DNA of 64,000 bases, from NCBI RefSeq assembly GCF_024502345.1, contig NZ_JALDNN010000001.1. One strand, given 5' to 3'. A model generated the notes under the pieces. The model saw nothing but the letters and a program-made list of their open reading frames with translations, was not told where the DNA came from and did no database searches. The translations under genes were made by a program, and so were the position numbers. Below, one piece after another: positions 10,327-52,598 of the stretch (its first letter is position 1; the number at the start of each line of letters is the position of its first letter). The DNA is from Escherichia coli. GTDB lineage: Bacteria; Pseudomonadota; Gammaproteobacteria; Enterobacterales; Enterobacteriaceae.

Positions 10327-11319
10327 TTATGGCAATGGGTTATTGGCCCGACGCGCCAGCCACTCTTTAATTTGCTGGCGATGCAGGCTAACGGAACGAC
10401 CTACGACAACGACGATAAGTAGCGCACCGGAAAGGGCGCTGGACACCTGATTTGGCACTCCTGCCATTTGCAAACCTTGTTGCAAATATCCCACTAATAA
10501 AACCGCAATGGCGGTGCCGATAATGGAACCGGAACCACCATAAATATTGGCCCCGCCAAGCACCACGGCGGTGATGCCGGGCATCAGAAACGACGCACCG
10601 AGATCGGAACGTGCTGAACCAAAATACGATACCAGCAGCACAGCGGCGACCGCAGATGCCAGCCCCGTCATGGCATAGAGTGCACATAAGGTGCGGTTAA
10701 CTGGAATCGCGCTATAAAGCGCCACGCGCGGGCTTTGCCCAATCAAAAACACATTACGTCCGGCATGGGTTTTATGCAGCCAGAGCCAGAAAACGAGGAG
10801 ACATATCAGGAAGATAATCAGCGGAACGGGGAGTCCCAGCACATCCAGGTTAGCGAAATCTGTAAACGCCATCGGGAATCCACCAATACCTTCGTACCCC
10901 GTCGCTCCGGCCATACCGGAAAGCAGCAGAGCGCTTCCGGCAAACAGATACAGCGTGCCAAGCGTAATCACCAGCGGGTTAACTTTGGTATAGATAATTA
11001 ATCCGGCGTTGATCAGCCCGCACAATGCGCCGAGCAGTAAGGTCAGGAGTATCGCCAGCGGCATCGGCACACCACTTTGAAACAGTACGCCCAATGCAAT
11101 GGCGCAGAGGCCGATGGTCGAACCAAACGAAATATCGATCCCGCCACTGACAATCACCATCGTCAGCGGTAGGGCGACAATGCCAATGCAGATAAAGTCA
11201 CTGGTGCTGAACAGCAACATATTGAGGTCTAACATCCGCGGGTTATTTGCACCAAATGCGACAATCTCAATTACGAGCAGTGCGGCAAGAGCCAGTTCCC
11301 AACCGTAGCGAATACGCAT
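10327..11319 (-). CDS. lsrD: AI-2 ABC transporter permease
   Basis: 330-aa polytopic membrane ORF. Confidence 0.9.
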
Positions 11320-26738: not shown

Positions 26739-28133
26739 GTGTATTCAGTAAACCAGTTGGTTATCTCGGGCTGCAAACGGCAATGGATCCTGATGGACAC
26801 GGAAACCTCTATGCCGTTGCTGTATCCCCTTAGGTACCATATTGACCATTTAGCTTTCCGCTCATTGTCCACGCAGTCAGCTTCACTGCAATCTGTGAAG
26901 TTTTTTTACGAATTCTGGAATCAAAAGTATGGTGTCTCGTTTTGCTACAGCTTCTATTCATCTGGCCACAATCCAGACATCGCCGTCAGCGAAATGCCCG
27001 CATTTTGGCTGTATCTGGAAAATGGCCACAACGTCCAGTCAAATGTGTTGTCTTTAACAAGAGCCACCAAAGCCAGTAGCTTAACTCACGCAGCCAGAGT
27101 TCGTGCCGTGATTCATTTTCTTTCTTTTTTGATTAACACTTACATATCACCCGCATACCGGGACGACACGCCCAAAGCATTAACCCTTTTGGCCTCGCGT
27201 CTACACACCCGTTTGCAGCTTTGTCGGGATAATTATCGAACGCTTACACCAAACAAATTTTCGCTACGTAGTCACAACAGCCAGGGGTTTCAGAGTCTGT
27301 CTGGTGCAATGGTGCTCAGCCTGTATGGGATAATAGCCCCCTCTTCTGCCCAAAAGCATAATCCACTAAACCCTTTCCCTTCCGGACATCTTCAGTTCCG
27401 CAATTTTTTAATTATTCGCCTGTTATTAAATTATGGTTTACGAATAGGTGAGCTATTGTTGTTAGAGTGCAGTTCAATCAAACCAAATTTAAGAGGTGAT
27501 AAATTCAGTTTGATTGTGACAACTGTCGATGGGGGGTACGAACCAAGAAAAAATGCGCCGTCTCTCAAAAATGCATGGGCTAACCGTGTATTAGAACTCG
27601 ACAAGCAAGATTATATTTATTTAAGTATTTATATAGAAAAAATCCGGCCCAAAACACATAAGCACGATTTCATCTTTATATCGAGTCAACAGTCAAGAAA
27701 ACCATTGTCCTATACATCAGTTCATTCTATTTTTTCGAAAGTCGATAAGGTCTTTACTGATCAACACCCAGAGTACAAATCGCCCTTGTACTCTGATTCG
27801 TTGCAACGATTGACACCACATACAACCCGACATACTTGGGCCTTTTTGACATTGCAAAGAATATGGCATTCAAAATATTTGAGAAATCAGCTAAACAAAA
27901 CACACTTTGTTGCTGGAGTCCCTTCCCTCACAGGAGTAATGGAAGAAGCAAAAGATGAGCTACGGCTGATTGGAGGATGGAGCCCGACTAGTCAAATGCC
28001 TGATCTATATGCAAAACGCTTCCTTTCTGAGCAGGCTAATACTGCCAATATCCAACGTATTATTCAAGATAATGCTGCGCTGCAGAATACGTTAAATACA
28101 ATAATGGATAAATATAACGATGAGTTCATTTGA
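26739..28133 (+). CDS. tyrosine-type site-specific recombinase with a long N-terminal extension
   Basis: 464-aa ORF; C-terminal catalytic motifs GLRIGELLLLE, HTTRHTWAF and GGWS...LYAKRF; AT-rich; true start uncertain. Confidence 0.65.
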   Translation: MYSVNQLVISGCKRQWILMDTETSMPLLYPLRYHIDHLAFRSLSTQSASLQSVKFFYEFWNQKYGVSFCYSFYSSGHNPDIAVSEMPAFWLYLENGHNVQSNVLSLTRATKASSLTHAARVRAVIHFLSFLINTYISPAYRDDTPKALTLLASRLHTRLQLCRDNYRTLTPNKFSLRSHNSQGFQSLSGAMVLSLYGIIAPSSAQKHNPLNPFPSGHLQFRNFLIIRLLLNYGLRIGELLLLECSSIKPNLRGDKFSLIVTTVDGGYEPRKNAPSLKNAWANRVLELDKQDYIYLSIYIEKIRPKTHKHDFIFISSQQSRKPLSYTSVHSIFSKVDKVFTDQHPEYKSPLYSDSLQRLTPHTTRHTWAFLTLQRIWHSKYLRNQLNKTHFVAGVPSLTGVMEEAKDELRLIGGWSPTSQMPDLYAKRFLSEQANTANIQRIIQDNAALQNTLNTIMDKYNDEFI

Positions 28134-28308
28134 ACATACACTAAAATTTGATGAAGAGAGTTCAATTTACCCTGCTGATTTAGCTCAGGCAATCATTGAA
28201 CTTAAGGTTCCTGAGCGGATTTATCTAAAGACGGCTGTGGGGTTTGATGATAAATACATAATTAATAAAGGGAGCAAATGGACTTTTGATTACTCTGGTA
28301 GTCGGTGA
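28120..28308 (+). CDS. hypothetical small protein (62 aa) overlapping the recombinase stop
   Basis: ORF overlaps the recombinase 3' end by 14 bp; no recognisable domain. Confidence 0.3.
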   Translation: MSSFEHTLKFDEESSIYPADLAQAIIELKVPERIYLKTAVGFDDKYIINKGSKWTFDYSGSR

Positions 28309-28404
28309 TACCTTGTTTTTAATCAAGATAACATCTCAAATAAGCTAAACAAATATATTTGTTTCAAATATGCATCGACAAGATTCCCAACCAGGCTTCC
28401 AGCG

Positions 28405-28693
28405 TTGCATCTTGACTGGAGAAAAGCCATCACATATTGCCGGGAATATGGCGGATTTTCGTTTAGTACGCTCCGACTATTTATAGAAAGAGATAACATT
28501 GACAATGCTGTTTTTTATTCTGTGTTGTTCGGGTTAAAAATACTTTGTTCTGAAGCATTCCCGGGTTTCAGTCTTGAAGATTATGATGATCTGGAGTTCG
28601 TCCCTCGACCGCATCTCGATCGTTGGGGAGTTTATCAGGAAATCGATAATGTTCTTGATCCTCTCGAAAAAAATATGATTTGTAATGGGCTGT
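28405..28693 (+). pseudogene. hypothetical protein whose frame runs into IS903 copy 3 (3' end truncated)
   Basis: 99-aa ORF 28405..28704 whose last residues are encoded by the IS903 end. Confidence 0.3.
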
Positions 28694-29751
28694 GGCTTTG
28701 TTGAATAAATCGAACTTTTGCTGAGTTGAAGGATCAGATCACGTATCTTCCCGACAACGCAGACCGTTCCGTGGCAAAGCAAAAGTTCAAAATCACCAAC
28801 TGGCCCACCTACAATAAAGCCCTCATCAACCGTGGCTCCATAACTTTCTGGCTGGATGATGAAGCTATTCAGGCCTGGTATGAGTCAGCAACACCTTCTT
28901 CACGAGGCAGACCTCAGCGCTATTCTGACCTTGCCATCACGACTGTGCTTGGTCATTAAACGCGTATTCAGGCTGACCCTGCGCGCTGCGCAGGGCTTTA
29001 TTGATTCCATTTTTTCTCTGATGAACGTTCCGCTACGCTGCCCGGATTACAGCTGTGTCAGCAGGCGGGCAAAGTCGGTTAATGTCAGTTTCAAAACGCC
29101 CACCCGGGGTGAAATCGCACACCTGGTAATTGATTCCACCGGGCTGAAGGTCTTCGGTGAAGGCGAGTGGAAAGTCAAAAAGCATGGCCAGGAACGCCGC
29201 CGTATCTGGCGTAAGCTGCATCTCGCCGTTGACAGTAAAACACATGAAATCATCTGCGCTGACCTGTCGCTGAACAACGTTACGGACTCAGAGGCCTTCC
29301 CCGGGTTAATCCGGCAAACCCACCGGAAAATCAGGTCAGCCGCCGCCGATGGCGCTTACGATACCCGGCTATGTCACGATGAACTGCGGCGTAAGAAAAT
29401 CAGCGCGCTTATCCCTCCCCGAAAAGGTGCGGGTTACTGGCCCGGTGAATATGCAGACCGTAACCGTGCAGTGGCTAATCAGCGAATGACCGGGAGTAAT
29501 GCGCGGTGGAAATGGACAACAGATTACAACCGTCGCTCGATAGCGGAAACGGCGATGTACCGGGTAAAACAGCTGTTCGGGGGTTCACTGACACTGCGTG
29601 ACTACGATGGTCAGGTTGCAGAGGCTATGGCCCTGGTACGAGCGCTGAACAAAATGACGAAAGCAGGTATGCCTGAAAGCGTGCGTATTGCCTGAAAACA
29701 CAACCCGCTACGGGGGAGACTTACCCGAAATCTGATTTATTCAACAAAGCC
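28694..29751 (+). mobile_element. IS903-type insertion sequence, copy 3, 1058 bp, frameshifted transposase, no target duplication
   Basis: Extra T (gtgcttggtcatt versus gtgctggtcatt) splits the transposase into ORFs 28726..28959 and 28856..29695; flanks atgggctgt and cctgctgga differ. Confidence 0.9.
28726..29695 (+). pseudogene. IS903-type transposase, frameshifted
   Basis: Two overlapping ORFs together cover the transposase. Confidence 0.85.
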
Positions 29752-30490
29752 CCTGCTGGAACACATTGATCGTATTGAAGATAATATTACTGAATATGAC
29801 CGGATTTTGTCCCGCATGGCAAAAACAGATCACCGCAGCCAGCGATTGATGGAACTGAAAGGGATTGGTCCCACAACGGCCTGTGCGCTGGTCGCCAGTA
29901 TCGGTAATGCACACGATTTTAAAAATGGGCGACAACTGGCAGCCTGGCTGGGACTAACGCCATCGCAGTACAGCAGTGGTGGGAAATCAAAGCTTGGCAG
30001 GATAACTAAAGCTGGCGATTCGTATCTGCGAACGCTACTGGTTCAGAGGGCTCGTTCGGTTCTGATTGGTGCCGAGAAAAGGACTGATTTATTCAGTCGT
30101 TGGGTCTGTTCACTGGTCGATCGCAGAGGATACTGGCGTGCCGTTGTAGCCATCGCCGCCAAAAACGCAAGGCTGTGCTGGCATCATTGCATTACGGTGA
30201 TGATTTCAGGCTGTACTCAGCCAGCTAAAGCACGAAACAAAATAACCATCTGACCTGCAATTCGTTGATGATAAAGGGTTAGACCCCGTGAGGCCTATCT
30301 GGCTATTGTACAGGATATACGTATCCGCTTAACGAACAAGAACCTCACGCGCGTCTTTCATCAGGGTCCGAATCGATGACGATTCATCATGGCCGTTTAT
30401 AGTACCGCAGTCTCTCCCCTTTATTTTTACTGAAGAGCAGACAGAAACCATAAACACCGGCGTTGACACGCCGGGGAAGCCCTTATAGTA
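29752..30490 (+). mobile_element. IS110-family element, 3' fragment (transposase C-terminus plus non-coding end), truncated by IS903 copy 3
   Basis: ORF 29807..30253 matches the C-terminal 140 residues of the transposases at 37205..38269 and 38640..39662; 30254..30490 matches their 3' non-coding ends in reverse complement. Confidence 0.8.
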
Positions 30491-30628
30491 CAATAATTTT
30501 CGAAATCCAACCCATCCCGCCTACAGGAATGACGGATTTTTCGGCGGTTCCGGCGTAGACCCACCACAACTGCTGTATAGCTTGTGGGTAAGTGATAATG
30601 AAGTGCAAACGAGATGGCGCAAATACTC

Positions 30629-30675
30629 TTTTGGTTTATCTTTTAATTACTTACGTATTAAAAGATAAACCAAAA
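30629..30675. repeat. perfect palindrome, 17-bp arms with 13-nt spacer
   Basis: ttttggtttatctttta - attacttacgtat - taaaagataaaccaaaa. Confidence 0.9.
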
Positions 30676-30783
30676 AATAAAAGACATTACTGTTATCCCC
30701 TTTAAAAAGTGGATAACCGAACAGCATCGGCGCGAGCGCCTCAAAAGTAGCTCCCCACGCTAAAGCGCGGGGCATTCAGAACG

Positions 30784-30828
30784 GAATCCCTCGATGGCTA
30801 ACAGCTCGCCTGTTAGCCATCGAGGGAT
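30784..30828. repeat. perfect palindrome, 20-bp arms with 5-nt loop
   Basis: aatccctcgatggctaacag - ctcgc - ctgttagccatcgagggatt. Confidence 0.9.
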
Positions 30829-31127
30829 TGGACAAATCCGGCCACGCCGGATACGTCAGCAAATATCGCTGAAGAATTAGCTTACACGCTCGTAAGCGGC
30901 TCTTACGACCCGCTAACGCGGAGATACGCCCCAACTGCGGCTTCGCCTTGTTGTGACCACTCCGACCGCGCACAAAAGCCTCTGAGCCGCTTTTAGCGGA
31001 ATATGGCTTTGCAAGGTGAAGGGATGGATAGGCGATCCCTTTCGATCCCTCACTGGTATCGGCGGCTAACCCTCGGTGCTACCTGTCATTTCATCCTGCC
31101 GCCTTACATGCGCTAACGCGCATAAAT

Positions 31128-31165
31128 CCCCGTTCCTCAGTGGAACGAAAACTCACGCTAACAGG
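31128..31165 (+). repeat. relic of a Tn3-subgroup 38-bp terminal inverted repeat
   Basis: tccccgttc-CTCAGTGGAACGAAAACTCACG-ctaacag matches the core of the Tn3 repeat GGGGTCTGACGCTCAGTGGAACGAAAACTCACGTTAAG; inner end faces higBA. Confidence 0.6.
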
Positions 31166-31200
31166 GTAGTGACCGGGTAGCCACGATAACTGCCAACAAA

Positions 31201-31251
31201 ATTAGCTTATAGGTTAATTCTACCTTGTCTGAAATTAGCCTATAGGTTAAT
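31201..31251 (+). promoter_or_regulatory. two copies of an 18-bp near-palindrome upstream of higB (candidate operator)
   Basis: attagcttataggttaat (31201..31218) and attagcctataggttaat (31234..31251), followed by tattaat and a GGAGG ribosome-binding site. Confidence 0.55.
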
Positions 31252-31273
31252 ATTAATAGAAATGGGAGGTCAC

Positions 31274-31603
31274 ATGTTTAGCGTTGTTTATCACCCGGAA
31301 GCCAGGGAAGAAGCCACAGCATTACCCGTAAAAATCAGGGTGAAGTTTGACCGTCTCATCGGCAAACTGGAGTATGACGCCCGATTACTGCGGGAGCCGG
31401 ACACGAAGCCCCTGGGCGATGGACTTTTTGAGATCCGCACGATGGGGACGGACATAGCCAGGGGAATCTGGGTATACCACAAAGGCAATACCATCATCAT
31501 GCTCCGTGTTTTCATCAAGAAGTCACAGAAAACGCCAGCGAAAGAAATCGATCTCGCCAAAAAGCGGTTAGCGGAGGTACTTAATGAAACTGGTAAGCCA
31601 TAA
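31274..31603 (+). CDS. higB: RelE/ParE-superfamily toxin (HigB-like)
   Basis: About 110 aa from MFSVVYHPEAREEA; toxin precedes and overlaps an XRE-HTH partner by 20 bp, the HigBA arrangement. Confidence 0.7.
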   Translation: MFSVVYHPEAREEATALPVKIRVKFDRLIGKLEYDARLLREPDTKPLGDGLFEIRTMGTDIARGIWVYHKGNTIIMLRVFIKKSQKTPAKEIDLAKKRLAEVLNETGKP

Positions 31604-31865
31604 AGAACTGCATAACGAGTGGATGCAGGACGATGAATATCGCGCTGCATGGCAGGAAGAAGAACGTAAGGAAAAGCTCAGGGAGCTGCTTGCTGAATGG
31701 CGCAAGCATGACAACCTGACAAAAGCGCAGGTTGCTGAACGCATGGGGGTTACACCTCCGGTTATTTCTCGCCTGGAAAACAACATCACCAAAGCCAGCA
31801 TCGACACACTGACCCGCTACGCTCACGCCTGCGGCATCAAGAAACCTGTCATTGCCCTGTACTGA
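31584..31865 (+). CDS. higA: XRE-family HTH antitoxin (HigA-like)
   Basis: 93 aa; HTH segment LTKAQVAERMGVTPPVISRLEN. Confidence 0.7.
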   Translation: MKLVSHKELHNEWMQDDEYRAAWQEEERKEKLRELLAEWRKHDNLTKAQVAERMGVTPPVISRLENNITKASIDTLTRYAHACGIKKPVIALY

Positions 31866-31867
31866 AT

Positions 31868-31897
31868 AGCCAGCCCTCCGGGGCTGGCCTTTTTGTT
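31868..31897 (+). terminator. rho-independent terminator after higA
   Basis: agccagccc-tccgg-ggctggcc followed by tttttgttt. Confidence 0.7.
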
Positions 31898-32074
31898 TCG
31901 GTCAGTCCCAAAATTTTGTTAAAGCAAGTTTAAAATGTCACCTGTTTCTCCAAAGTTGAAATGTCACTTCTAAGCCAATCTATTTATACATAATCTTTAC
32001 ATCTTTCCCCGGTGACAAAGTGCTAATTGGTCTGTAATGTTCAATGTGTGGCAGGCAAGCCGCCGGTGACTTAG

Positions 32075-33270
<1,196 letters not shown>

Positions 33271-33439
33271 TTAATATAAAGACACAAGCAGAGACATTTT
33301 TGGCACGATATAAAAACGCTAAGTTAAAAAATCACTATGACGTGTTGGGTATCAAATGTTCACTGGCATAAACCTCTGTTTCTGATGTAAAACAGATTTT
33401 CTGAGGAGGCGTAAAACCTCCTCGTACTGCGAAATTGAT

Positions 33440-33940
33440 TTAGTGATAGCGATCGATCACGCCAACCAGATAGTGGTCGGTTTGCTGCATGTTGATGCCC
33501 GCTTTTTTAGCGCTGCGGACTTCATCCAGAATGATTTGCAACAGCGTCCCGTCCACGATTTCCTCTTTTCTGTATCGCTTCAGGAAGTTAATCGCTGACT
33601 TATCGTTTGCTGCCTGGGCGTCTTCCGTCAAAGAGGTCAGCGCATTAATGCGCTTCTGGTAATCGCTTACCGTCTGCTCAAACAGATCTTCCAGCGTGGA
33701 AAATTCACCGCACCGGGCGTGTTGCTCCTGTAACACCGGCGTGGCGCCGCTCTGTTTGATGTATTCGTACATGCGCATCATTTGCGTCACCGTATTTTGC
33801 GCCTGATGACGCAAAAATAGTGCGGTGCCATTAAGGCTATTCTCGCTGCACCTCTGGCTGAGCTGAAGATACAAATTTGAGGTATAAAACTCCTGATTCA
33901 TTTGCGCATTCAGTTTTTGAACTATTCCGCTAGCGATCAT
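33440..33940 (-). CDS. ferritin-like protein (FtnB/YecI-like paralog)
   Basis: 166 aa; NAQMNQEFYTSNLYLQLS and TQMMRMYEYIK resemble recalled E. coli FtnB at roughly half identity; hairpin terminator downstream. Confidence 0.7.
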   Translation of the reverse strand: MIASGIVQKLNAQMNQEFYTSNLYLQLSQRCSENSLNGTALFLRHQAQNTVTQMMRMYEYIKQSGATPVLQEQHARCGEFSTLEDLFEQTVSDYQKRINALTSLTEDAQAANDKSAINFLKRYRKEEIVDGTLLQIILDEVRSAKKAGINMQQTDHYLVGVIDRYH

Positions 33941-34358
33941 AGGACTTCCTTATTTCTTGTCATCTCAGAAAACGGTCACTCTTCGAAAAAATAACCAGAA
34001 TAAAAGCGATTCTTTCGCTTTTTTTATTGCGCCTGGTTACGCAGTCATATTCATTTTAAGTCGGGATGCTCCTTATTTAAATATCCAACCCTACTATCGC
34101 ATTTCTATCTGGCATTATTCTGTGATGGTGTTTCGATATTCACACTCCCTGTGCCAATCCTTTCTTATCGACAGTAGGAAACTTCCTCCGGCTATTCTGC
34201 TGAACACGATTAGGGGCACTGTTGCAAAGTTAGCGATGAGGCAGCGTTTTGTCTTATTCAAAGGCCTTACATTTCAAAAACTCTGCTTACCAGGCGCATT
34301 TCGGGTGATGCTGCCAACTTACTGATTTAGTGTATGATGGTGTTTTTGAGGTGCTCCA

Positions 34359-34634
34359 GTGGCTTCTGTTTCTATCAGCTGTCCCTCCTGTTCAGCTACT
34401 GACGGGGTGGTGCGTAACGGCAAAAGCACCGCCGGACATCAGCGCTATCTCTGCTCTCACTGCCGTAAAACATGGCAACTGCAGTTCACTTACACCGCTT
34501 CTCAACCCGGTACGCACCAGAAAATCATTGATATGGCCATGAATGGCGTTGGATGCCGGGCAACCGCCCGCATTATGGGCGTTGGCCTCAACACGATTTT
34601 CCGCCATTTAAAAAACTCAGGCCGCAGTCGGTAA
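34359..34634 (+). CDS. insA: IS1 InsA
   Basis: 91 aa [30 protein letters not shown]... Confidence 0.9.
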
Positions 34635-35056
34635 CCTCGCGCATACAGCCGGGCAGTGACGTCATCGTCTGCGCGGAAATGGACGAACAGTGGGGATACG
34701 TCGGGGCTAAATCGCGCCAGCGCTGGCTGTTTTACGCGTATGACAGGCTCCGGAAGACGGTTGTTGCGCACGTATTCGGTGAACGCACTATGGCGACGCT
34801 GGGGCGTCTTATGAGCCTGCTGTCACCCTTTGACGTGGTGATATGGATGACGGATGGCTGGCCGCTGTATGAATCCCGCCTGAAGGGAAAGCTGCACGTA
34901 ATCAGCAAGCGATATACGCAGCGAATTGAGCGGCATAACCTGAATCTGAGGCAGCACCTGGCACGGCTGGGACGGAAGTCGCTGTCGTTCTCAAAATCGG
35001 TGGAGCTGCATGACAAAGTCATCGGGCATTATCTGAACATAAAACACTATCAATAA
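34553..35056 (+). CDS. insB: IS1 InsB reading frame (expressed as InsAB' by frameshifting)
   Basis: 167-aa [24 protein letters not shown]... overlapping insA. Confidence 0.9.
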
Positions 35057-35066
35057 GTTGGAGTCA

Positions 35067-35747
35067 TTACCGCATTTCGCCCAGGGGATCACCATAATAA
35101 AATGCTGAGGCCTGGCCTTTGCGTAGTGCACACATCACCTCAATACCTTTGATGGTAGCGTAAGCCGTCTTCATGGATTTAAATCCCAGCGTGGCGCCGA
35201 TTATCCGTTTCAGTTTGCCATAATCGCATTCAATCACGTTGTTCCGGTACTTAATCTGTCGGTGTTCAACGTCAGACGGGCACCGGCCTTCGCGTTTGAG
35301 CAGAGCAAGCGCGCGACCATAGGCGGGCGCTTTATCCGTGTTGATGAATCGCGGGATCTGCCACTTCTTCACGTTGTTGAGGATTTTACCCAGAAACCGG
35401 TATGCAGCTTTGCTGTTACGACGGGAGGAGAGATAAAAATCGACAGTGCGGCCCCGGCTGTCGACGGCCCGGTACAGATACGCCCAGCGGCCATTGACCT
35501 TCACGTAGGTTTCATCCATGTGCCACGGGCAAAGATCGGAAGGGTTACGCCAGTACCAGCGCAGCCGTTTTTCCATTTCAGGCGCATAACGCTGAACCCA
35601 GCGGTAAATCGTGGAGTGATCGACATTCACTCCGCGTTCAGCCAGCATCTCCTGCAGCTCACGGTAACTGATGCCGTATTTGCAGTACCAGCGTACGGCC
35701 CACAGAATGATGTCACGCTGAAAATGCCGGCCTTTGAATGGGTTCAT
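35067..35747 (-). CDS. tnpA: IS26 transposase, C-terminally truncated by the IS1 insertion
   Basis: MNPFKGRHFQRDIILWAVRWY...GDPLGEMR then stop; the recalled native protein continues LVSRVFEM. Confidence 0.85.
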   Translation of the reverse strand: MNPFKGRHFQRDIILWAVRWYCKYGISYRELQEMLAERGVNVDHSTIYRWVQRYAPEMEKRLRWYWRNPSDLCPWHMDETYVKVNGRWAYLYRAVDSRGRTVDFYLSSRRNSKAAYRFLGKILNNVKKWQIPRFINTDKAPAYGRALALLKREGRCPSDVEHRQIKYRNNVIECDYGKLKRIIGATLGFKSMKTAYATIKGIEVMCALRKGQASAFYYGDPLGEMR

Positions 35748-44770: not shown

Positions 44771-47755
44771 ATGCCACGGCGACAGATACTGAGCAGCGAA
44801 GAGCAGGAACGCTTACTGGTTATACCAGATGATGAAATTATTCTGACCCGAATGTGTTTTCTGAACGAACCGGATATTGCGCTCATTAATAAGCACCGAA
44901 GGCCAGCGAATCGCCTGGGCTTTGCTGTATTACTCTGTTATCTGCGTGGACCTGGATTTATTCCGGACAAAAGCAGTGCTCCTCACAATGGCGTTGTATC
45001 CAGGGTTGCTTCCCGACTGAAACTTCAGCCTGATTTATGGCCGGAATATGCATCCAGAGAGCAAACCCGCTGGGAACATCTGACCGAACTTTATCGCTAC
45101 CTGGAACTATCCCCGTTCAGCCGGTCAATGCAAAAAGACTGTATCCGTCATCTGCACCCCTATGCCATGCGAACTGACAAAGGATTTATGCTGGCGGAAG
45201 AAATGCTCAGCTGGCTACATAACAATAATGTTATTTTCCCTTCTGTTGAAGTGATCGAACGGACGCTTGCCGAAGTCGTCACGCTCGCTAACAGATCGGT
45301 ATTTTCGACACTTACCGCGCAACTGGAAAAGCAGCATAAATCAGCACTCGACAGCCTGCTCATATCAGAGGGTGAACAACCTTCCCGTCTGGCATGGCTG
45401 CTACAGCCTCCGGGTAAAATAAACGGTAAAAATGTGCTGCAACATATCGACCGGCTTAATTCCATCGCTGCGCTGGGGTTGCCTGATGGTATTGCACTTT
45501 CCGTTCACCAGAACAGGTTGCTTAAACTGGCGCGTGAGGGCCGGAAAATGAGCAGCAGGGACCTGGCAAAATTCACCGATGTCAGACGTTACGCTACGCT
45601 GGTTTGTATAATAACAGAGGCCAGGGCCACCCTGACTGACGAAGTGATTGATCTGCACGAGCGTATCCTGGGTAGTCTGTTCAGCAGGGCAAAACGCACG
45701 CAGGCCGAACGGCTCCAGCAAACGGGAAAGCTTATTCAGAGCAAGCTGAAGCAGTACGTTACCGTCGGGCAGGCGTTACTTAACGCCAGAGAATCCGGGG
45801 AAGATCCCTGGACTGCAATAGAAGATGTCCTTCCCTGGCAGGAATTCATCAACAGCGTGGAAGAAACGCGGTTTCTTTCCCGTAAGGGCAATTTCGACGC
45901 GCTTCATCTGATCACCGAAAAATACAGTACGTTGCGTAAATATGCCCCGCGTATGCTGTCAGCATTGCAGTTCATGGCGACACCTGCGGCGCAGGCGCTC
46001 AGCGATGCGCTGGACACCATAACGGAAATGTACCGTAAACAACTTCGTAAAGTGCCGCCATCAGCGCCAACAGGGTTTATCCCTGAAAGCTGGCGAAAAC
46101 TGGTGCTCACGCCTTCAGGCATCGACCGCAAGTACTACGAGTTTTGCGTACTGAATGAACTCAAGGGTGCATTACGTTCCGGTGATATCTGGGTAAAAGG
46201 ATCGCGCCGCTACAAAAATTTTGATGATTATCTCATCCCGACTGCTGAGTTTGAGAAATCCCGACATAATGACCAGTTACAGTTGGCCGTTCAGACCGAT
46301 AGCCAGGCATACCTTCAGGCCCGTATGACTCTTCTTGCATCTCGGCTGGAAGAAGTTAACGCGATGGCGCTTGCCGGTGATTTGCCCGATGTAGATATCT
46401 CAGATAAAGGCGTAAAAATCACTCCACTGGAGAACAGCGTTCCTTCAGGTGTTTCGCCCTTTGCAGATTTGGTCTATGGCATGCTTCCCCATCCGAAAAT
46501 TACGGAGATACTGGAAGAAGTTGATAGCTGGACGGGATTTACGCGTCACTTCGCGCACCTCAAAAATAATAACGTCAGACCAAAAGACGGAAGACTGTTG
46601 CTGACCACCATTCTGGCTGACGGCATCAACCTTGGGCTGACAAAAATGGCGGAATCCTGCCCTGGGGCCACAAGATCGTCACTCGAAGGTATTCAGACAT
46701 GGTACATCAGGGATGAAACTTATTCAGCGGCACTGGCCGAGCTGGTCAACGCACAGAAAGAGCGGCCTCTGGCCGCATTCTGGGGCGACGGGACAACATC
46801 GTCGTCAGACGGGCAGAACTTTCGGGTAGGCAGTCACGGACGTTATGCCGGTCAGGTCAATCTTAAATATGGTCAGGAGCCGGGCGTGCAGATTTATACG
46901 CATATCTCAGACCAATACAGCCCGTTCTACGCCAAAGTGATCAGCCGGGTGCGCGACTCAACCCACGTGCTTGATGGCCTGCTGTACCATGAAAGCGATC
47001 TGGAAATTACCGAGCATTACACCGATACCGCAGGCTTCACTGAACATGTTTTCGCCCTGATGCACCTGCTGGGATTCGCTTTTGCGCCAAGGATCCGTGA
47101 TCTTCATGACAAGCGGCTGTTTATTCATGGAAAGGCCGAGCGCTATCCGGGGCTTCAGTCTGTCATATCAACAACCTGCCTGAATATCAAAGACATTGAG
47201 TCGCACTGGGATGAGGTATTGCGCCTGGCAACCTCGATTAAGCAGGGGACAGTCACCGCATCACTGATGATGAAAAAGTTAGCCAGTTACCCAAAACAGA
47301 ATGGACTTGCCAAAGCGCTGAGAGAGATTGGCCGCATCGAACGGACACTATTTATGCTGGACTGGTTCCGTGATCCCGGTCTGCGCCGACGCGTGCAGGC
47401 GGGGCTGAATAAGGGTGAGGCCCGTAATGCCCTTGCGCGAGCGGTCTTTTTGCACCGTCTGGGTGAAATAAGGGATCGTGGGCTGGAGAATCAGAGTTAT
47501 CGCGCCAGCGGGCTGACATTACTGACAGCAGCGATCACGTTGTGGAACACGGTATATATAGAAAGAGCTATTGAGTCACTAAAACGAAAGGGTATCCCGA
47601 TAAATGAGCAACTGGTCTCTCATCTTTCTCCCCTGGGCTGGGAACATATCAATCTGAGTGGAGATTACGTCTGGCGTAATAATCTTAAGCTGGGATCCGG
47701 AAAATACCGCTCATTACGTACAGTCGATACCGCTTTGTACAAAAAACAGTCTTAG
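44771..47755 (+). CDS. tnpA: Tn3-family DDE transposase
   Basis: 994-aa ORF; stop codon lies inside the terminal repeat. Confidence 0.85.
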   Translation: MPRRQILSSEEQERLLVIPDDEIILTRMCFLNEPDIALINKHRRPANRLGFAVLLCYLRGPGFIPDKSSAPHNGVVSRVASRLKLQPDLWPEYASREQTRWEHLTELYRYLELSPFSRSMQKDCIRHLHPYAMRTDKGFMLAEEMLSWLHNNNVIFPSVEVIERTLAEVVTLANRSVFSTLTAQLEKQHKSALDSLLISEGEQPSRLAWLLQPPGKINGKNVLQHIDRLNSIAALGLPDGIALSVHQNRLLKLAREGRKMSSRDLAKFTDVRRYATLVCIITEARATLTDEVIDLHERILGSLFSRAKRTQAERLQQTGKLIQSKLKQYVTVGQALLNARESGEDPWTAIEDVLPWQEFINSVEETRFLSRKGNFDALHLITEKYSTLRKYAPRMLSALQFMATPAAQALSDALDTITEMYRKQLRKVPPSAPTGFIPESWRKLVLTPSGIDRKYYEFCVLNELKGALRSGDIWVKGSRRYKNFDDYLIPTAEFEKSRHNDQLQLAVQTDSQAYLQARMTLLASRLEEVNAMALAGDLPDVDISDKGVKITPLENSVPSGVSPFADLVYGMLPHPKITEILEEVDSWTGFTRHFAHLKNNNVRPKDGRLLLTTILADGINLGLTKMAESCPGATRSSLEGIQTWYIRDETYSAALAELVNAQKERPLAAFWGDGTTSSSDGQNFRVGSHGRYAGQVNLKYGQEPGVQIYTHISDQYSPFYAKVISRVRDSTHVLDGLLYHESDLEITEHYTDTAGFTEHVFALMHLLGFAFAPRIRDLHDKRLFIHGKAERYPGLQSVISTTCLNIKDIESHWDEVLRLATSIKQGTVTASLMMKKLASYPKQNGLAKALREIGRIERTLFMLDWFRDPGLRRRVQAGLNKGEARNALARAVFLHRLGEIRDRGLENQSYRASGLTLLTAAITLWNTVYIERAIESLKRKGIPINEQLVSHLSPLGWEHINLSGDYVWRNNLKLGSGKYRSLRTVDTALYKKQS

Positions 47756-47788
47756 CGTGGGATAATTTCCGTTTTCCAAGCGGACCCC
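47751..47788 (-). repeat. 38-bp terminal inverted repeat of the Tn3-family element
   Basis: Reverse complement reads GGGGTCCGCTTGGAAAACGGAAATTATCCCACGCTAAG. Confidence 0.85.
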
Positions 47789-47858
47789 AGGGAGAGCTGA
47801 GAACATTAAATTTTAATATAAACAAAGAATTACCTTCTTAGCGTACGTTACCGTCCCA

Positions 47859-48092
47859 TTGGCCCTCAAACCCCTCAACACCCTGATGGAACGTTTTTTT
47901 AGAAGTCTGAAAACAGAATGGGTGCCGGATAATGGATACGCTAATTTTAGCGAAGCCAGCACAGCGATAACGAATTACATAACGGGATATTACAGCCAGC
48001 TCAGACCTCATCAATATAACGGTAGTTTGACGCGGAATGAATCAGAACGATTGCTCTGGAAAAACTCTAAAGCCGTGGCCAACTATTGTTGA
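47859..48092 (+). pseudogene. IS3-family integrase (orfB) C-terminal remnant
   Basis: 77-aa ORF with the YYSQLRPHQYNG motif typical of IS3-family integrase C-termini. Confidence 0.5.
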
Positions 48093-51507: not shown

Positions 51508-52565
51508 GGCTTTGTTGAATAAATCAGATTTCGGGTAAGTCTCCCCCGTAGCGGGTTGTGTTTTCAGGCAATACGCACGCTTTCAGGCATACCTGCTTTC
51601 GTCATTTTGTTCAGCGCTCGTACCAGGGCCATAGCCTCTGCAACCTGACCATCGTAGTCACGCAGTGTCAGTGAACCCCCGAACAGCTGTTTTACCCGGT
51701 ACATCGCCGTTTCCGCTATCGAGCGACGGTTGTAATCTGTTGTCCATTTCCACCGCGCATTACTCCCGGTCATTCGCTGATTAGCCACTGCACGGTTACG
51801 GTCTGCATATTCACCGGGCCAGTAACCCGCACCTTTTCGGGGAGGGATAAGCGCGCTGATTTTCTTACGCCGCAGTTCATCGTGACATAGCCGGGTATCG
51901 TAAGCGCCATCGGCGGCGGCTGACCTGATTTTCCGGTGGGTTTGCCGGATTAACCCGGGGAAGGCCTCTGAGTCCGTAACGTTGTTCAGCGACAGGTCAG
52001 CGCAGATGATTTCATGTGTTTTACTGTCAACGGCGAGATGCAGCTTACGCCAGATACGGCGGCGTTCCTGGCCATGCTTTTTGACTTTCCACTCGCCTTC
52101 ACCGAAGACCTTCAGCCCGGTGGAATCAATTACCAGGTGTGCGATTTCACCCCGGGTGGGCGTTTTGAAACTGACATTAACCGACTTTGCCCGCCTGCTG
52201 ACACAGCTGTAATCCGGGCAGCGTAGCGGAACGTTCATCAGAGAAAAAATGGAATCAATAAAGCCCTGCGCAGCGCGCAGGGTCAGCCTGAATACGCGTT
52301 TAATGACCAAGCACAGTCGTGATGGCAAGGTCAGAATAGCGCTGAGGTCTGCCTCGTGAAGAAGGTGTTGCTGACTCATACCAGGCCTGAATAGCTTCAT
52401 CATCCAGCCAGAAAGTTATGGAGCCACGGTTGATGAGGGCTTTATTGTAGGTGGGCCAGTTGGTGATTTTGAACTTTTGCTTTGCCACGGAACGGTCTGC
52501 GTTGTCGGGAAGATACGTGATCTGATCCTTCAACTCAGCAAAAGTTCGATTTATTCAACAAAGCC
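51508..52565 (-). mobile_element. IS903-type insertion sequence, copy 4, 1058 bp, same frameshift as copy 3, intact 9-bp target duplication
   Basis: Flanks cctcgtttc (51499..51507) and cctcgtttc (52566..52574); same extra base as copy 3. Confidence 0.9.
51564..52533 (-). pseudogene. IS903-type transposase, frameshifted
   Basis: ORFs 51564..52403 and 52300..52533. Confidence 0.85.
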
Positions 52566-52598
52566 CCTCGTTTCCTCTCTTCATGACACCCTGACTCA

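What the first reader, a model, noticed from the sequence alone, without database searches (positions are those of the whole stretch)
31128..31897. HigB/HigA-like toxin-antitoxin pair beside a Tn3-type repeat relic, with a duplicated operator-like palindrome
A RelE/ParE-superfamily toxin gene precedes and overlaps an XRE-HTH antitoxin gene, followed by a clean terminator. Two copies of an 18-bp near-palindrome sit in the promoter, as expected for antitoxin autoregulation. About 100 bp upstream is a degenerate copy of the Tn3-subgroup terminal repeat with its inner face toward the module. Toxin-antitoxin pairs are known to be common cargo of Tn3-family transposons, so this pair looks like the surviving end of a decayed transposon.
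Basis: partly seen in the sequence, partly recalled or inferred. Interest (0 to 1): 0.55.

Follow-up and report, generated by a model that had tools for sequence, protein, structure and literature searches.

The report
Plasmid toxin-antitoxin pair beside transposon-end scar
This is an ordinary, very widespread plasmid "addiction" gene pair (a HigB/Gp49-type toxin and its DNA-binding antitoxin) with a decaying remnant of a Tn3-type transposon end beside it; everything described is real, but nothing about it is surprising.

Summary
Window 31274-31603 encodes a 109-aa Gp49/HigB-type RelE-fold toxin. Window 31584-31865 encodes a 93-aa XRE-HTH antitoxin that overlaps it by 20 nt. A strong terminator follows. 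Two 20-nt repeats, each an 18-bp near-palindrome, bracket and fill the promoter. At 31125-31162 lies a Tn3-type terminal repeat that keeps the inner 27 nt (26/27) and lacks the outer GGGG end.

The pair is RefSeq WP_000493286/WP_000780222 and occurs in more than 1000 sequenced Enterobacterales plasmids. Both genes are under strong purifying selection (dN/dS 0.01-0.06). The operator half-sites are invariant across diverged relatives. A 64%-identical Klebsiella homologue has been shown to be toxic and to be neutralised by its downstream antitoxin.

The native setting is the maintenance region of small IncFII-like plasmids: repA, ori, relic, toxin, antitoxin, resolvase, parA. The window holds a 1.6-kb fragment of that region, trapped between an IS110-family element and ISKpn26.

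The relic is genuine. Three other plasmids carry an almost intact repeat (32-34/38; GGGGTCTGACGCTCAG… in two of them) at the same position. It decays at about the neutral rate.

No partner repeat, transposase or res site was found in about 60 loci, and the cassette also occurs without the relic. "Surviving cargo of a Tn3 transposon" is therefore possible (about 0.35) but unproven. Interest is low.

The parts
31125..31162 (+). Solo relic of a Tn3-subgroup 38-bp terminal inverted repeat. The inner 27 nt (31136-31162, the transposase-binding part) are kept. The outer 11 nt, including the GGGG cleavage end, are replaced. The inner end faces the TA operon.
   Evidence: Searches give 27/38 to the Tn3 IR overall and 26/27 for the inner part. 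Searches give 25/26 to a real Tn2 IRR. A near-intact homologous IR sits at the same position in L018, L062 and L063.
31199..31218 (.). Operator-like repeat O1 (AAATTAGCTTATAGGTTAAT), upstream of the -35 element.
   Evidence: The half-sites TTAGC / G.TAA are invariant in 15 diverged promoters.
31225..31253 (+). Inferred sigma-70 promoter: -35 TTGTCT (31225-31230), 17-nt spacer, -10 TAATAT (31248-31253).
   Evidence: Read from the sequence. At 8/12 it falls below the scan threshold of 9/12. The TTG of the -35 and the TAAT of the -10 are invariant or nearly so in 15 relatives. Inferred, not shown.
31232..31251 (.). Operator-like repeat O2 (AAATTAGCCTATAGGTTAAT). It fills the promoter spacer and overlaps the -10.
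31274..31603 (+). Toxin gene, 109 aa, Gp49/HigB-type member of the RelE/ParE superfamily (RefSeq WP_000493286.1). The Shine-Dalgarno sequence GGGAGG lies at 31264-31269.
   Evidence: dN/dS is 0.02-0.05.
31584..31865 (+). Antitoxin gene, 93 aa, with an N-terminal extension and a C-terminal XRE helix-turn-helix (RefSeq WP_000780222.1). The Shine-Dalgarno sequence GGAGG lies at 31573-31577.
   Evidence: dN/dS is 0.01-0.06.
31869..31897 (+). Intrinsic terminator of the operon.
30481..32074 (+). Context: a 1.6-kb fragment of the maintenance region of a small IncFII-like plasmid. It comprises a structured region downstream of repA/ori, the relic, the TA operon and 155 bp beyond. An IS110-family element end bounds it on the left and ISKpn26 on the right.
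   Evidence: The fragment is collinear with L008, L009, L011, L013, L014 and L064. The left edge is defined, the right edge.

Best explanation
This is a functional toxin-first type II toxin-antitoxin operon of the Gp49/HigB-HigA (tad-ata) kind.

Mechanism, inferred from the family: the 109-aa toxin is a RelE-fold, ribosome-dependent mRNA endonuclease. The 93-aa antitoxin neutralises it through its N-terminal part. Its C-terminal XRE helix-turn-helix, as a dimer, binds two palindromic operators (TTAGCC-N6-GGTTAA). One lies upstream of the -35 and the other fills the -35/-10 spacer, so the operon represses itself. When the plasmid is lost, the labile antitoxin decays and the toxin arrests the cell, which stabilises the plasmid.

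Context, shown: the module belongs to the replication and maintenance backbone of small IncFII-like Enterobacterales plasmids (repA, ori, relic, toxin, antitoxin, serine resolvase, parA). The window carries a 1.6-kb piece of that backbone captured between insertion sequences in a large mosaic plasmid.

The upstream Tn3-like sequence is a solo, non-functional, neutrally decaying remnant of a once complete Tn3-subgroup terminal repeat. It has lost its outer 11 nt, including the cleavage end. Whether the TA pair was ever inside that transposon cannot be decided from the data.
For: Family and fold:
- Pfam Gp49 matches at 7.7e-23; HTH_3 and HTH_37 match the antitoxin.
- Both proteins hit the two chains of the same solved complex, S. 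pneumoniae HigBA 6af3.
- The AlphaFold model has pLDDT 89.7. Its best fold matches are HigB 6af4 (TM 0.8), M. tuberculosis HigB1 including the ribosome-bound structure 7nbu, and RelE.

Functionality:
- dN/dS is 0.01-0.06 for both genes against six relatives, and zero nonsynonymous changes against two closer ones.
- The pair is present in more than 1000 plasmid records.
- A 64%-identical Klebsiella homologue (group 14H) was toxic in E. coli and was neutralised by its downstream DNA-binding antitoxin (PMC7192599; the same sequence as the L031 toxin).

Operators:
- Two repeats occur against 0.02 expected by chance.
- The half-sites and the -35/-10 cores are invariant while the centres and spacers vary across 15 promoters.
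- More distant relatives have different palindromes in the same layout.
- GP49-type HigA autorepression is shown for A. baumannii (PMC5906591).

Backbone context.

Relic:
- Genuine by the matches.
- A near-intact version sits at the same place in L018, L062 and L063.
- In L003, 9/38 positions have changed against dS 0.25-0.5. In L073 the repeat matches only 27/38 while the TA is 87% identical. That is neutral decay.
Against: - No experiment exists for this exact pair; none was found in the searches.
- Toxicity, antitoxin lability, the RNA target and operator binding are inferred from homologues at 24-64% identity.
- The promoter hexamers match only 8/12 and were missed by the consensus scan.
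- In L008, L005 and L002 restriction-modification or nuclease genes lie just downstream. A role in phage defence, instead of or besides plasmid stabilisation, is therefore not excluded. PADLOC gave only weak domain-level hits.
Confidence: 0.8

Rival explanations
1. First reader's reading. The TA pair was cargo of a Tn3-subgroup transposon. Its left IR, 6 bp of interior and the cargo survive; transposase, res and the right IR have been lost. The small IncFII-like plasmids then kept this arm as a stability module.
For: - A near-intact IR (34/38 in L018 and L062, 32/38 in L063) lies with its inner end 6 bp from the left boundary of the TA cassette.
- The flanks of L018 and L063 diverge right up to the outer end of the IR.
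- The upstream 'hyp' gene family normally ends 1-5 codons after ...ETWSIF, and the IR adds a 12-aa tail, as expected for an insertion junction.
- IR-less homologues of that gene are not followed by the TA.
- The hyp-IR-TA association is old (L073).
- Gp49/HTH pairs are known Tn3-family cargo, including the order T> A> tnpR> tnpA> in TnPosp1 (PMC7157771).
- In the native plasmids a serine resolvase, 47% identical to Tn3 TnpR, lies downstream in the same orientation.
Against: - No partner IR of the same type, no tnpA and no adjacent res were found in about 60 loci.
- The cassette occurs without the IR, with the same left boundary (L005, L006) or a shorter one (L004, L007).
- Diverged family members have no IR.
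- Published Gp49 cargo is not in the Tn3 subgroup and abuts res. Here about 570 bp and a further small ORF separate the TA from the resolvase site.
- The inward-facing second IR in L002 and L008 belongs to a different element of Tn5403/Tn1000 type.
Confidence: 0.35
2. The TA pair was never cargo. A Tn3-type element once inserted at the 3' end of the upstream gene, next to a pre-existing backbone TA module. Its interior was later deleted, leaving one IR as a scar. A further deletion removed the upstream gene and the outer 11 nt, giving the form seen in the window.
For: - L005 has the upstream gene with its own terminator joined directly to the cassette, with no IR.
- These plasmids are littered with other solo or miniature Tn3-type ends: L002/L008 IR_R, the 207-bp elements in L007 and L063, and the nested IRs at window 47751-47874.
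- The window form differs from L018 by a 522-bp deletion replaced by 12 nt.
- The cassette has its own discrete boundaries, about 31168 to about 31920, in unrelated settings.
Against: - It requires the internal deletion to end exactly at the cassette's own left boundary.
- IR-less homologues of the upstream gene are not next to the TA.
- The 189-aa upstream gene of L005 is unrelated to the 149-aa one apart from its promoter and N-terminus. L005 may therefore be derived rather than ancestral.
Confidence: 0.45
3. The module acts mainly as an abortive-infection or anti-phage device, or as a stabiliser of an adjacent defence island, rather than for plasmid maintenance.
For: - The position just after the terminator is a variable slot. 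It holds a methyltransferase-helicase-GIY-YIG island in L008, type I R-M genes in L005 and a GIY-YIG nuclease in L002.
- There are weak PADLOC hits: an NsnC C-terminal domain at 4e-6 and HTH_VI at 5e-11.
Against: - The PADLOC hits are at domain level only.
- The conserved neighbours are repA/ori, a resolvase and parA, which is a maintenance cluster.
- The window itself has no defence genes beside the pair.
Confidence: 0.12
4. The relic is retained because it still binds Tn3-type transposase and gives the plasmid target immunity against Tn1/Tn2/Tn3.
For: - What survives is exactly the inner, transposase-binding part of the repeat (positions 12-38, 26/27). The cleavage end (box A) is gone. The box A/B layout is described in PMC9579193.
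- From my own recollection, not checked here: the transposase-binding domain alone was reported to confer Tn3 immunity (Amemura et al. 1990, Gene 88:21).
Against: - The relic accumulates changes at about the synonymous rate: 9/38 in L003 and 11/38 mismatches to the Tn3 IR in L073, including inner positions.
- About half of the plasmids with this TA lack the relic.
- Other lineages keep only the outer half (L076-78).
Confidence: 0.04

Closest known systems
Gp49 (PF05973)-type HigB / XRE-HigA 'reverse' type II TA systems: tad-ata of Paracoccus pAMI2, gp49-gp48 of phage N15, HigBA2 of A. baumannii pAB120, S. pneumoniae HigBA (PDB 6AF3/6AF4), M. tuberculosis HigB1
   Same: The toxin is encoded first. 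The toxin has the Gp49 domain and the RelE/HigB fold. The antitoxin has a C-terminal XRE HTH. Palindromic operators overlap the promoter. The system is plasmid-borne.
   Different: Only 24-25% identical to the solved S. pneumoniae HigB. Two operators are set 33 bp apart. No experimental data exist for this pair.
Klebsiella toxin group 14H (Gp49) with antitoxin 27P (Horesh et al. 2020, NAR 48:4357)
   Same: Same family and gene order. The toxin is 64% identical to this one (sequence equal to the L031 toxin). It was shown to be toxic in E. coli and to be neutralised by its downstream DNA-binding antitoxin.
   Different: It is a paralogue with a different operator sequence (AGCTAACTTAGCTCTTGAGCTAAGTTAGCT in L031) and different plasmid contexts.
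Gp49/HTH_37 TA pairs embedded in Tn3-family transposons: Tn4662a, Tn5501.12, TnDsu1, TnPosp1, TnSku1 (Lima-Mendez et al. 2020, mBio 11:e00452-20)
   Same: Same toxin and antitoxin families and toxin-first order. TnPosp1 has the order T> A> tnpR> tnpA> behind an IR, which resembles IR, T>, A>, then resolvase> in the native plasmids.
   Different: Those elements are in the Tn3000, Tn4651 and Tn163 subgroups, are intact, and have the TA abutting res. Here there is only one decayed Tn3-subgroup IR, no tnpA, and no res within about 570 bp. None of those elements appeared among the rows shown from a spread sample of 60 of 3780 plasmid hits at E<=1e-3.
Solo or miniature Tn3-family ends (TIMEs; Szuplewska et al. 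2014, PLoS One 9:e105010)
   Same: An isolated Tn3-type IR without a transposase. Related loci hold 207-bp IR-flanked miniature elements (L007, L063) and an inward-facing IR pair around the TA (L002, L008).
   Different: In the window there is a single truncated IR. The pair in L002 and L008 is made of two different IR types, so it is not a coherent miniature element.

Membership tests
Type II TA, Gp49/HigB-HigA (tad-ata) kind | The toxin carries the Gp49 (PF05973) domain of the RelE/ParE superfamily. | tested here: met
   Pfam E 7.7e-23 over residues 15-99. PHROG 2523 E 6e-34.
Type II TA, Gp49/HigB-HigA (tad-ata) kind | The toxin adopts the RelE/HigB microbial RNase fold. | tested here: met
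   The AF2 model has pLDDT 89.7 and pTM 0.82. Foldseek finds HigB 6af4 at TM 0.79-0.80, HigB1 7awk/7nbu, and RelE structures.
Type II TA, Gp49/HigB-HigA (tad-ata) kind | Toxin gene first, with the antitoxin gene immediately downstream or overlapping in one operon. | tested here: met
   A 20-nt overlap, one promoter region and one terminator.
Type II TA, Gp49/HigB-HigA (tad-ata) kind | The antitoxin has an XRE-type HTH DNA-binding domain. | tested here: met
   HTH_3 2.3e-13 and HTH_37 1e-7. The best PDB hit is HigA 6af3_B.
Type II TA, Gp49/HigB-HigA (tad-ata) kind | Palindromic operator(s) overlapping the operon's own promoter (autoregulation). | tested here: met
   This holds at sequence level only. 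There are two near-palindromes, one in the -35/-10 spacer, and the half-sites are invariant in 15 relatives. Binding was not tested.
Type II TA, Gp49/HigB-HigA (tad-ata) kind | The toxin arrests growth and the cognate antitoxin neutralises it. | not testable with these tools
   This has been shown only for a 64%-identical homologue (PMC7192599).
Tn3-family transposon end (Tn3 subgroup) | A 38-bp terminal repeat beginning with GGGG (box A, the cleavage end). | tested here: not met
   Window 31125-31135 reads AATCCCCGTTC. The feature is met in L018 and L062 at the homologous position (GGGGTCTGACGCTCAG…); L063 reads CGAGTCTGAC… there.
Tn3-family transposon end (Tn3 subgroup) | Inner transposase-binding part ending ...ACGYTAAG. 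| tested here: met
   26/27 at 31136-31162, with 0.00 expected by chance. The last base is C instead of G.
Tn3-family transposon end (Tn3 subgroup) | A matching partner repeat in inverted orientation. | tested here: not met
   None was found in the 64-kb window or in L009-L064. L002 and L008 have an inward-facing IR of a different type.
Tn3-family transposon end (Tn3 subgroup) | A tnpA transposase (and tnpR/res) inside the element. | tested here: not met
   tblastn found no Tn3-family TnpA within 10 kb of the pair in 53 genome loci. The window's own Tn3-family tnpA (44771-47755) is 13 kb away and has different IRs.
Tn3-family transposon end (Tn3 subgroup) | A 5-bp target-site duplication. | not testable with these tools
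   Only one end exists.
TA modules integrated in the Tn3 transposition module (Lima-Mendez 2020) | The TA abuts the res site upstream of the resolvase gene. | tested here: inconclusive
   In the window the downstream DNA is cut by ISKpn26 at 32075. In native plasmids (L014, L064) a resolvase lies 725 bp downstream and its repeat-rich putative res sits next to it, about 570 bp from the TA terminator.

The most novel reading that the evidence does not exclude
The plasmid stability cluster of these small IncFII-like plasmids (IR, toxin, antitoxin, res/resolvase) is a domesticated arm of a Tn3-subgroup transposon. That would be the first Gp49-type TA linked to the Tn3 subgroup proper. The surviving inner half of the repeat would still bind Tn3-type transposase and give the plasmid target immunity.
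Probability: 0.04. Interest if true: 0.55.

Novelty: new member of a known kind. Interest (0 to 1): 0.15.

Why it matters
It matters little beyond annotation. The pair is one of the commonest addiction modules on Klebsiella, Escherichia and Citrobacter resistance plasmids: more than 1000 PLSDB records carry it at 95% identity or more, and a 64% paralogue is in about 2000 more. Knowing its operators, boundaries and native backbone helps in reading mosaic plasmids. The relic is a small, datable marker of past Tn3-type activity beside a replication origin. If the cargo reading were proven, it would add a Tn3-subgroup case to the known TA-in-transposon examples.

Tried and rejected
- A partner IR in the window: only the relic and two unrelated Tn3-family IRs at 47751-47874 were found.
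- L002 as an 'empty site': it proved to be a microhomology deletion of the TA genes that keeps O1 and the last 22 nt of the antitoxin gene, so it is not a pre-insertion site.
- IR_L plus IR_R in L002/L008 as a TA-carrying miniature transposon: rejected. IR_R and about 30 nt beside it match the ends of Tn5403/Tn1000-like elements and are heterologous to IR_L.
- repA in the window next to the ori fragment: none was found. What looked like more replicon sequence at 30284-30480 is the end of an IS110-family element.
- Rfam scan of 28000-38000: no hits.
- A res site just after the terminator: the TGTCAC/GTGACA motifs at 31936-32019 are about 560 bp from the resolvase in the native plasmids, whose likely res lies next to the resolvase gene. 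This was not pursued.
- A pre-insertion arrangement (upstream gene followed by the TA with no IR) sought via homologues of the 149-aa protein: the IR-less homologues are in other contexts without the TA, which is suggestive but not decisive.
- This exact protein in the literature: no hit for the accession. It is not among the toxins tested in PMC7192599, as far as the stored supplement shows.
Full report
OBSERVATION

A 109-aa ORF at 31274-31603 follows a GGGAGG ribosome-binding site. A 93-aa ORF at 31584-31865 overlaps it by 20 nt. A G+C-rich hairpin with a T run follows at 31869-31897. It folds at -20.7 kcal/mol, z = -4.4, and none of 200 shuffles folds as well.

A 20-nt unit, AAATTAGCYTATAGGTTAAT, occurs at 31199-31218 and 31232-31251, and nowhere else in the 64 kb apart from its own palindromic reverse match. 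Shuffles give 0.02 matches on average. Each copy holds an 18-bp imperfect palindrome.

At 31136-31162, CTCAGTGGAACGAAAACTCACGCTAAC matches the inner 27 nt of the Tn3 terminal repeat with one mismatch, against 0.00 expected by chance. It matches a real Tn2 IRR next to blaTEM-1 in locus L004 at 25/26. The 11 nt that should form the outer end (GGGGTCTGACG) read AATCCCCGTTC. The whole 38-mer therefore scores 27/38 and lacks the cleavage end.

WHAT THE GENES ARE

The first protein is a Gp49 (PF05973) domain protein, E 7.7e-23. The second has an XRE helix-turn-helix in its C-terminal two thirds: HTH_3 at 2.3e-13 and HTH_37 at 1e-7. By sequence, both hit the two chains of one solved complex, Streptococcus pneumoniae HigB/HigA 6AF3.

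I built a 23-sequence alignment from related loci. The AlphaFold model built from it has mean pLDDT 89.7. Its best structural matches are HigB 6AF4 (TM about 0.8), M. tuberculosis HigB1 free and on the ribosome (7AWK, 7NBU), and RelE proteins.

RefSeq names the two proteins WP_000493286.1, a type II TA system RelE/ParE family toxin, and WP_000780222.1, a helix-turn-helix regulator.

Both genes are under strong purifying selection. dN/dS is 0.01-0.06 against relatives with dS 0.25 to above 1.

No paper mentions this accession. A 64%-identical Klebsiella toxin, group 14H, has the same sequence start as the L031 toxin. It was toxic in E. coli and was neutralised by its downstream DNA-binding antitoxin (Horesh et al. 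2020, PMC7192599). GP49-type HigBA modules are toxin-first and autorepressed by the antitoxin, with the toxin as co-repressor (PMC5906591).

PROMOTER AND OPERATORS

Reading the sequence gives -35 TTGTCT (31225-31230), a 17-nt spacer and -10 TAATAT (31248-31253). At 8/12 this is just below the scan's threshold, so the scan did not report it.

I aligned 15 promoters from relatives whose coding regions differ by up to about 14%. The invariant columns are TTA.C and TAA of each repeat, the TTG of the -35, and TAAT of the -10. The repeat centres, the spacer between the repeats and the DNA upstream of O1 all vary.

O2 fills the -35/-10 spacer and O1 lies one and a half turns upstream of the -35. More distant relatives (45-65% toxin identity) have quite different palindromes in the same layout. 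This is what one expects of operators that co-evolve with their repressor. Binding itself is inferred, not shown.

WHERE IT BELONGS

The 1.1 kb around the pair is 100% identical in many plasmids of Klebsiella, Raoultella, Escherichia, Citrobacter and Salmonella. In total 1317 PLSDB records match, and 373 of them carry almost the whole stretch. The toxin is encoded at 95% identity or more in about 1190 records, and a 64-65% paralogue in about 2000 more.

In small IncFII-like plasmids, and in species-representative genomes of Pectobacterium, Shimwellia, Erwinia and Serratia, the order is repA, about 865 bp of origin region, relic, toxin, antitoxin. In a 14.6-kb Serratia plasmid the order continues with a serine resolvase 725 bp downstream and then parA. 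This is a replication and maintenance backbone.

The window keeps only 30481-32074 of it. On the left is the end of an IS110-family element, itself truncated by an IS5-family copy. A full second copy of the IS110-family element lies at about 36935-38269. On the right, ISKpn26 starts at 32075 and its two flanks (TTAG and TTAA) do not form a target duplication. No repA lies beside the fragment.

THE RELIC

Three independent records have an almost complete Tn3-type repeat at exactly the homologous position, 149 nt before the toxin ATG. They are Erwinia oleae L018, E. coli pMS20659 L062 and Salmonella L063. The sequence is GGGGTCTGACGCTCAGATGAACGAAAACTCACGCTAAC, scoring 34/38, 34/38 and 32/38 (L063 begins CGAG rather than GGGG). 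The window's relic is therefore a truncated descendant of a real terminal repeat.

In those records a gene of about 149 aa lies between the origin region and the repeat, and its reading frame runs into the repeat. Homologues elsewhere end 1-5 residues after ...ETWSIF, so the repeat adds a 12-residue tail, as at an insertion junction. Compared with L018, the window lacks 522 bp (that gene plus the outer 11 nt of the repeat) and has 12 nt in their place.

In L005 the relic and 6 nt are replaced by 709 bp carrying a different 189-aa gene with its own terminator and no repeat.

In about 500 plasmid records the homology starts at repeat position 12, as in the window. Among the 40 rows listed, only two records kept the outer end.

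The relic changes at about the neutral rate. In L003, 9 of 38 positions differ where dS of the neighbouring genes is 0.25-0.5. In L073 the repeat has decayed to 27/38 while the TA genes are 87% identical. I see no sign that it is under selection.

WAS THE PAIR TRANSPOSON CARGO?

For:
- The inner end of the repeat lies 6 bp from the left boundary that the cassette shows in unrelated settings.
- The flanks of L018 and L063 differ right up to the outer end.
- Repeat-less homologues of the upstream gene are not followed by the TA.
- The association of gene, repeat and TA is old.
- Gp49/HTH pairs are documented Tn3-family cargo, and TnPosp1 has the order T> A> tnpR> tnpA> (PMC7157771). A resolvase 47% identical to Tn3 TnpR lies downstream in the native plasmids.

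Against:
- No Tn3-family transposase lies within 10 kb in 53 genome loci.
- No matching partner repeat was found anywhere.
- The inward-facing repeat about 95 bp after the terminator in L002 and L008 is the end of a different, Tn5403/Tn1000-like element.
- The cassette exists without the repeat in the F-like leading region (L006, L015, L016), in K. pneumoniae FIB/FII plasmids (L004) and in Salmonella and Citrobacter (L007, L020, L021), and in diverged relatives.
- The published Gp49 cases are in other subgroups and abut res, whereas here about 570 bp and a small ORF intervene.

I put the cargo reading at about 0.35 and a simple insertion scar beside a backbone module at about 0.45. The rest is undecided.

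COMPARISON AND NOVELTY

The module is a member of the Gp49/HigB-HigA (tad-ata) kind of type II TA. Every sequence-level defining feature I could test is met. Toxicity is untested for this protein. It is not a Tn3-family element: box A, the partner repeat, the transposase and res are all absent.

Nothing here departs from known biology. The pair is already annotated by homology in thousands of records. The only new details are its operator architecture, its native backbone and the history of the adjacent repeat.

VERDICT

The feature is ordinary and interest is low (0.15).

Noticed in passing
window 29752-30490 and 36935-38269: A 3' fragment of an IS110-family element (ORF 29807-30253, NCBIfam IS110 E 2e-40) abuts the plasmid fragment. 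A full copy (354-aa transposase, E 1e-107) lies inverted at 37205-38269, and its downstream 215 bp (36935-37149) are 96% identical to 30284-30501. Both copies end in ...GTACAATA, next to a similar target sequence.
   Followed up: partly
window 32075-33271: ISKpn26 (IS5 family) is flanked by TTAG on the left and TTAA on the right, so there is no target duplication. The DNA to its right (ferritin-like gene at 33440-33940) is unrelated to what follows the TA in the native plasmids. The IS therefore marks a rearrangement, not a simple insertion.
   Followed up: partly
window 47751-47788 and 47837-47874 (minus strand): Two complete Tn3-family terminal repeats of different types lie 49 bp apart at the end of the 994-aa transposase gene (44771-47755). 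One is GGGGTCCGCTTGGAAAACGG…; the other is Tn1000/Tn5403-like, GGGGTTTGAGGGCCAATGGG…. One element seems to have inserted just inside the end of another.
   Followed up: no
window 30760-31123: A highly structured non-coding stretch, including a 17-bp-stem hairpin at about 30790-30828, is conserved downstream of IncFII-type repA in many plasmids. In L076-L078 it also occurs detached from any repA, directly after the outer 22 nt of the Tn3-type repeat. There is no Rfam hit. It may be a single-strand initiation (G-site) region. The L076-78 arrangement is unexplained.
   Followed up: partly
L007 5762-5968 and L063 5890-6096: These are 207-bp elements bounded by inverted Tn3-type repeats (34-35/38 and 28-29/38) with no coding capacity, like TIME miniature elements. 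The L007 copy ends 45 bp before the start codon of a vapBC operon.
   Followed up: no
L064 4659-4763 (also L014 about 11013-11125): Between the TA terminator and the resolvase gene of the native plasmids lies a small ORF, MNIDLNIEIKVDAARVIWSITGLITCVAKCLGYL, followed by a hairpin terminator. It could be a small hydrophobic peptide gene. ISKpn26 has removed it from the window.
   Followed up: no
L008 8775-8814 and 15191-15231: A 40-nt direct repeat (the 3' half of the terminator plus TTTCGGTCAGTCCCAAAA) flanks a 6.3-kb block. The block holds a Tn5403-like repeat relic and methyltransferase, helicase and GIY-YIG nuclease genes. In all contexts the DNA diverges right after GGTCAGTCCCAAAAT (window about 31913-31925), as if this were a recombination hot spot for cargo exchange.
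   Followed up: partly
L018 569-1018, L063 6603-7034, L073 2071-2526, L005 1526-2095: A gene between the origin region and the TA has a conserved promoter and N-terminus (M.RKKRSG.KISGNPRKR) but unrelated or strongly diverged bodies of 143-189 aa. It has no Pfam or NCBIfam match. Its function is unknown.
   Followed up: partly
L002 6100-6135: In a K. variicola IncFII plasmid the TA genes have been deleted between ACCTTGTC in the promoter and ACCTGTC at the end of the antitoxin gene. Operator O1, the last 22 nt of the antitoxin gene and the terminator remain.
   Followed up: yes
window 16835-17892, 20247-21307, 28694-29751, 51508-52566, 57361-58418: Five copies of a roughly 1.06-kb IS5-family element lie in both orientations within the 64-kb window. 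They could drive further inversions and deletions.
   Followed up: no
L064 9023-13182: The same small Serratia plasmid carries a separate Tn3-family element (ISPa38-type transposase) with a nucleotidyltransferase/DUF86 (MNT/HEPN-like) gene pair next to the transposase gene. This is an example of TA-type genes inside a Tn3-family element on the same backbone. The same three cargo genes appear in L001 at 19291-20325.
   Followed up: no
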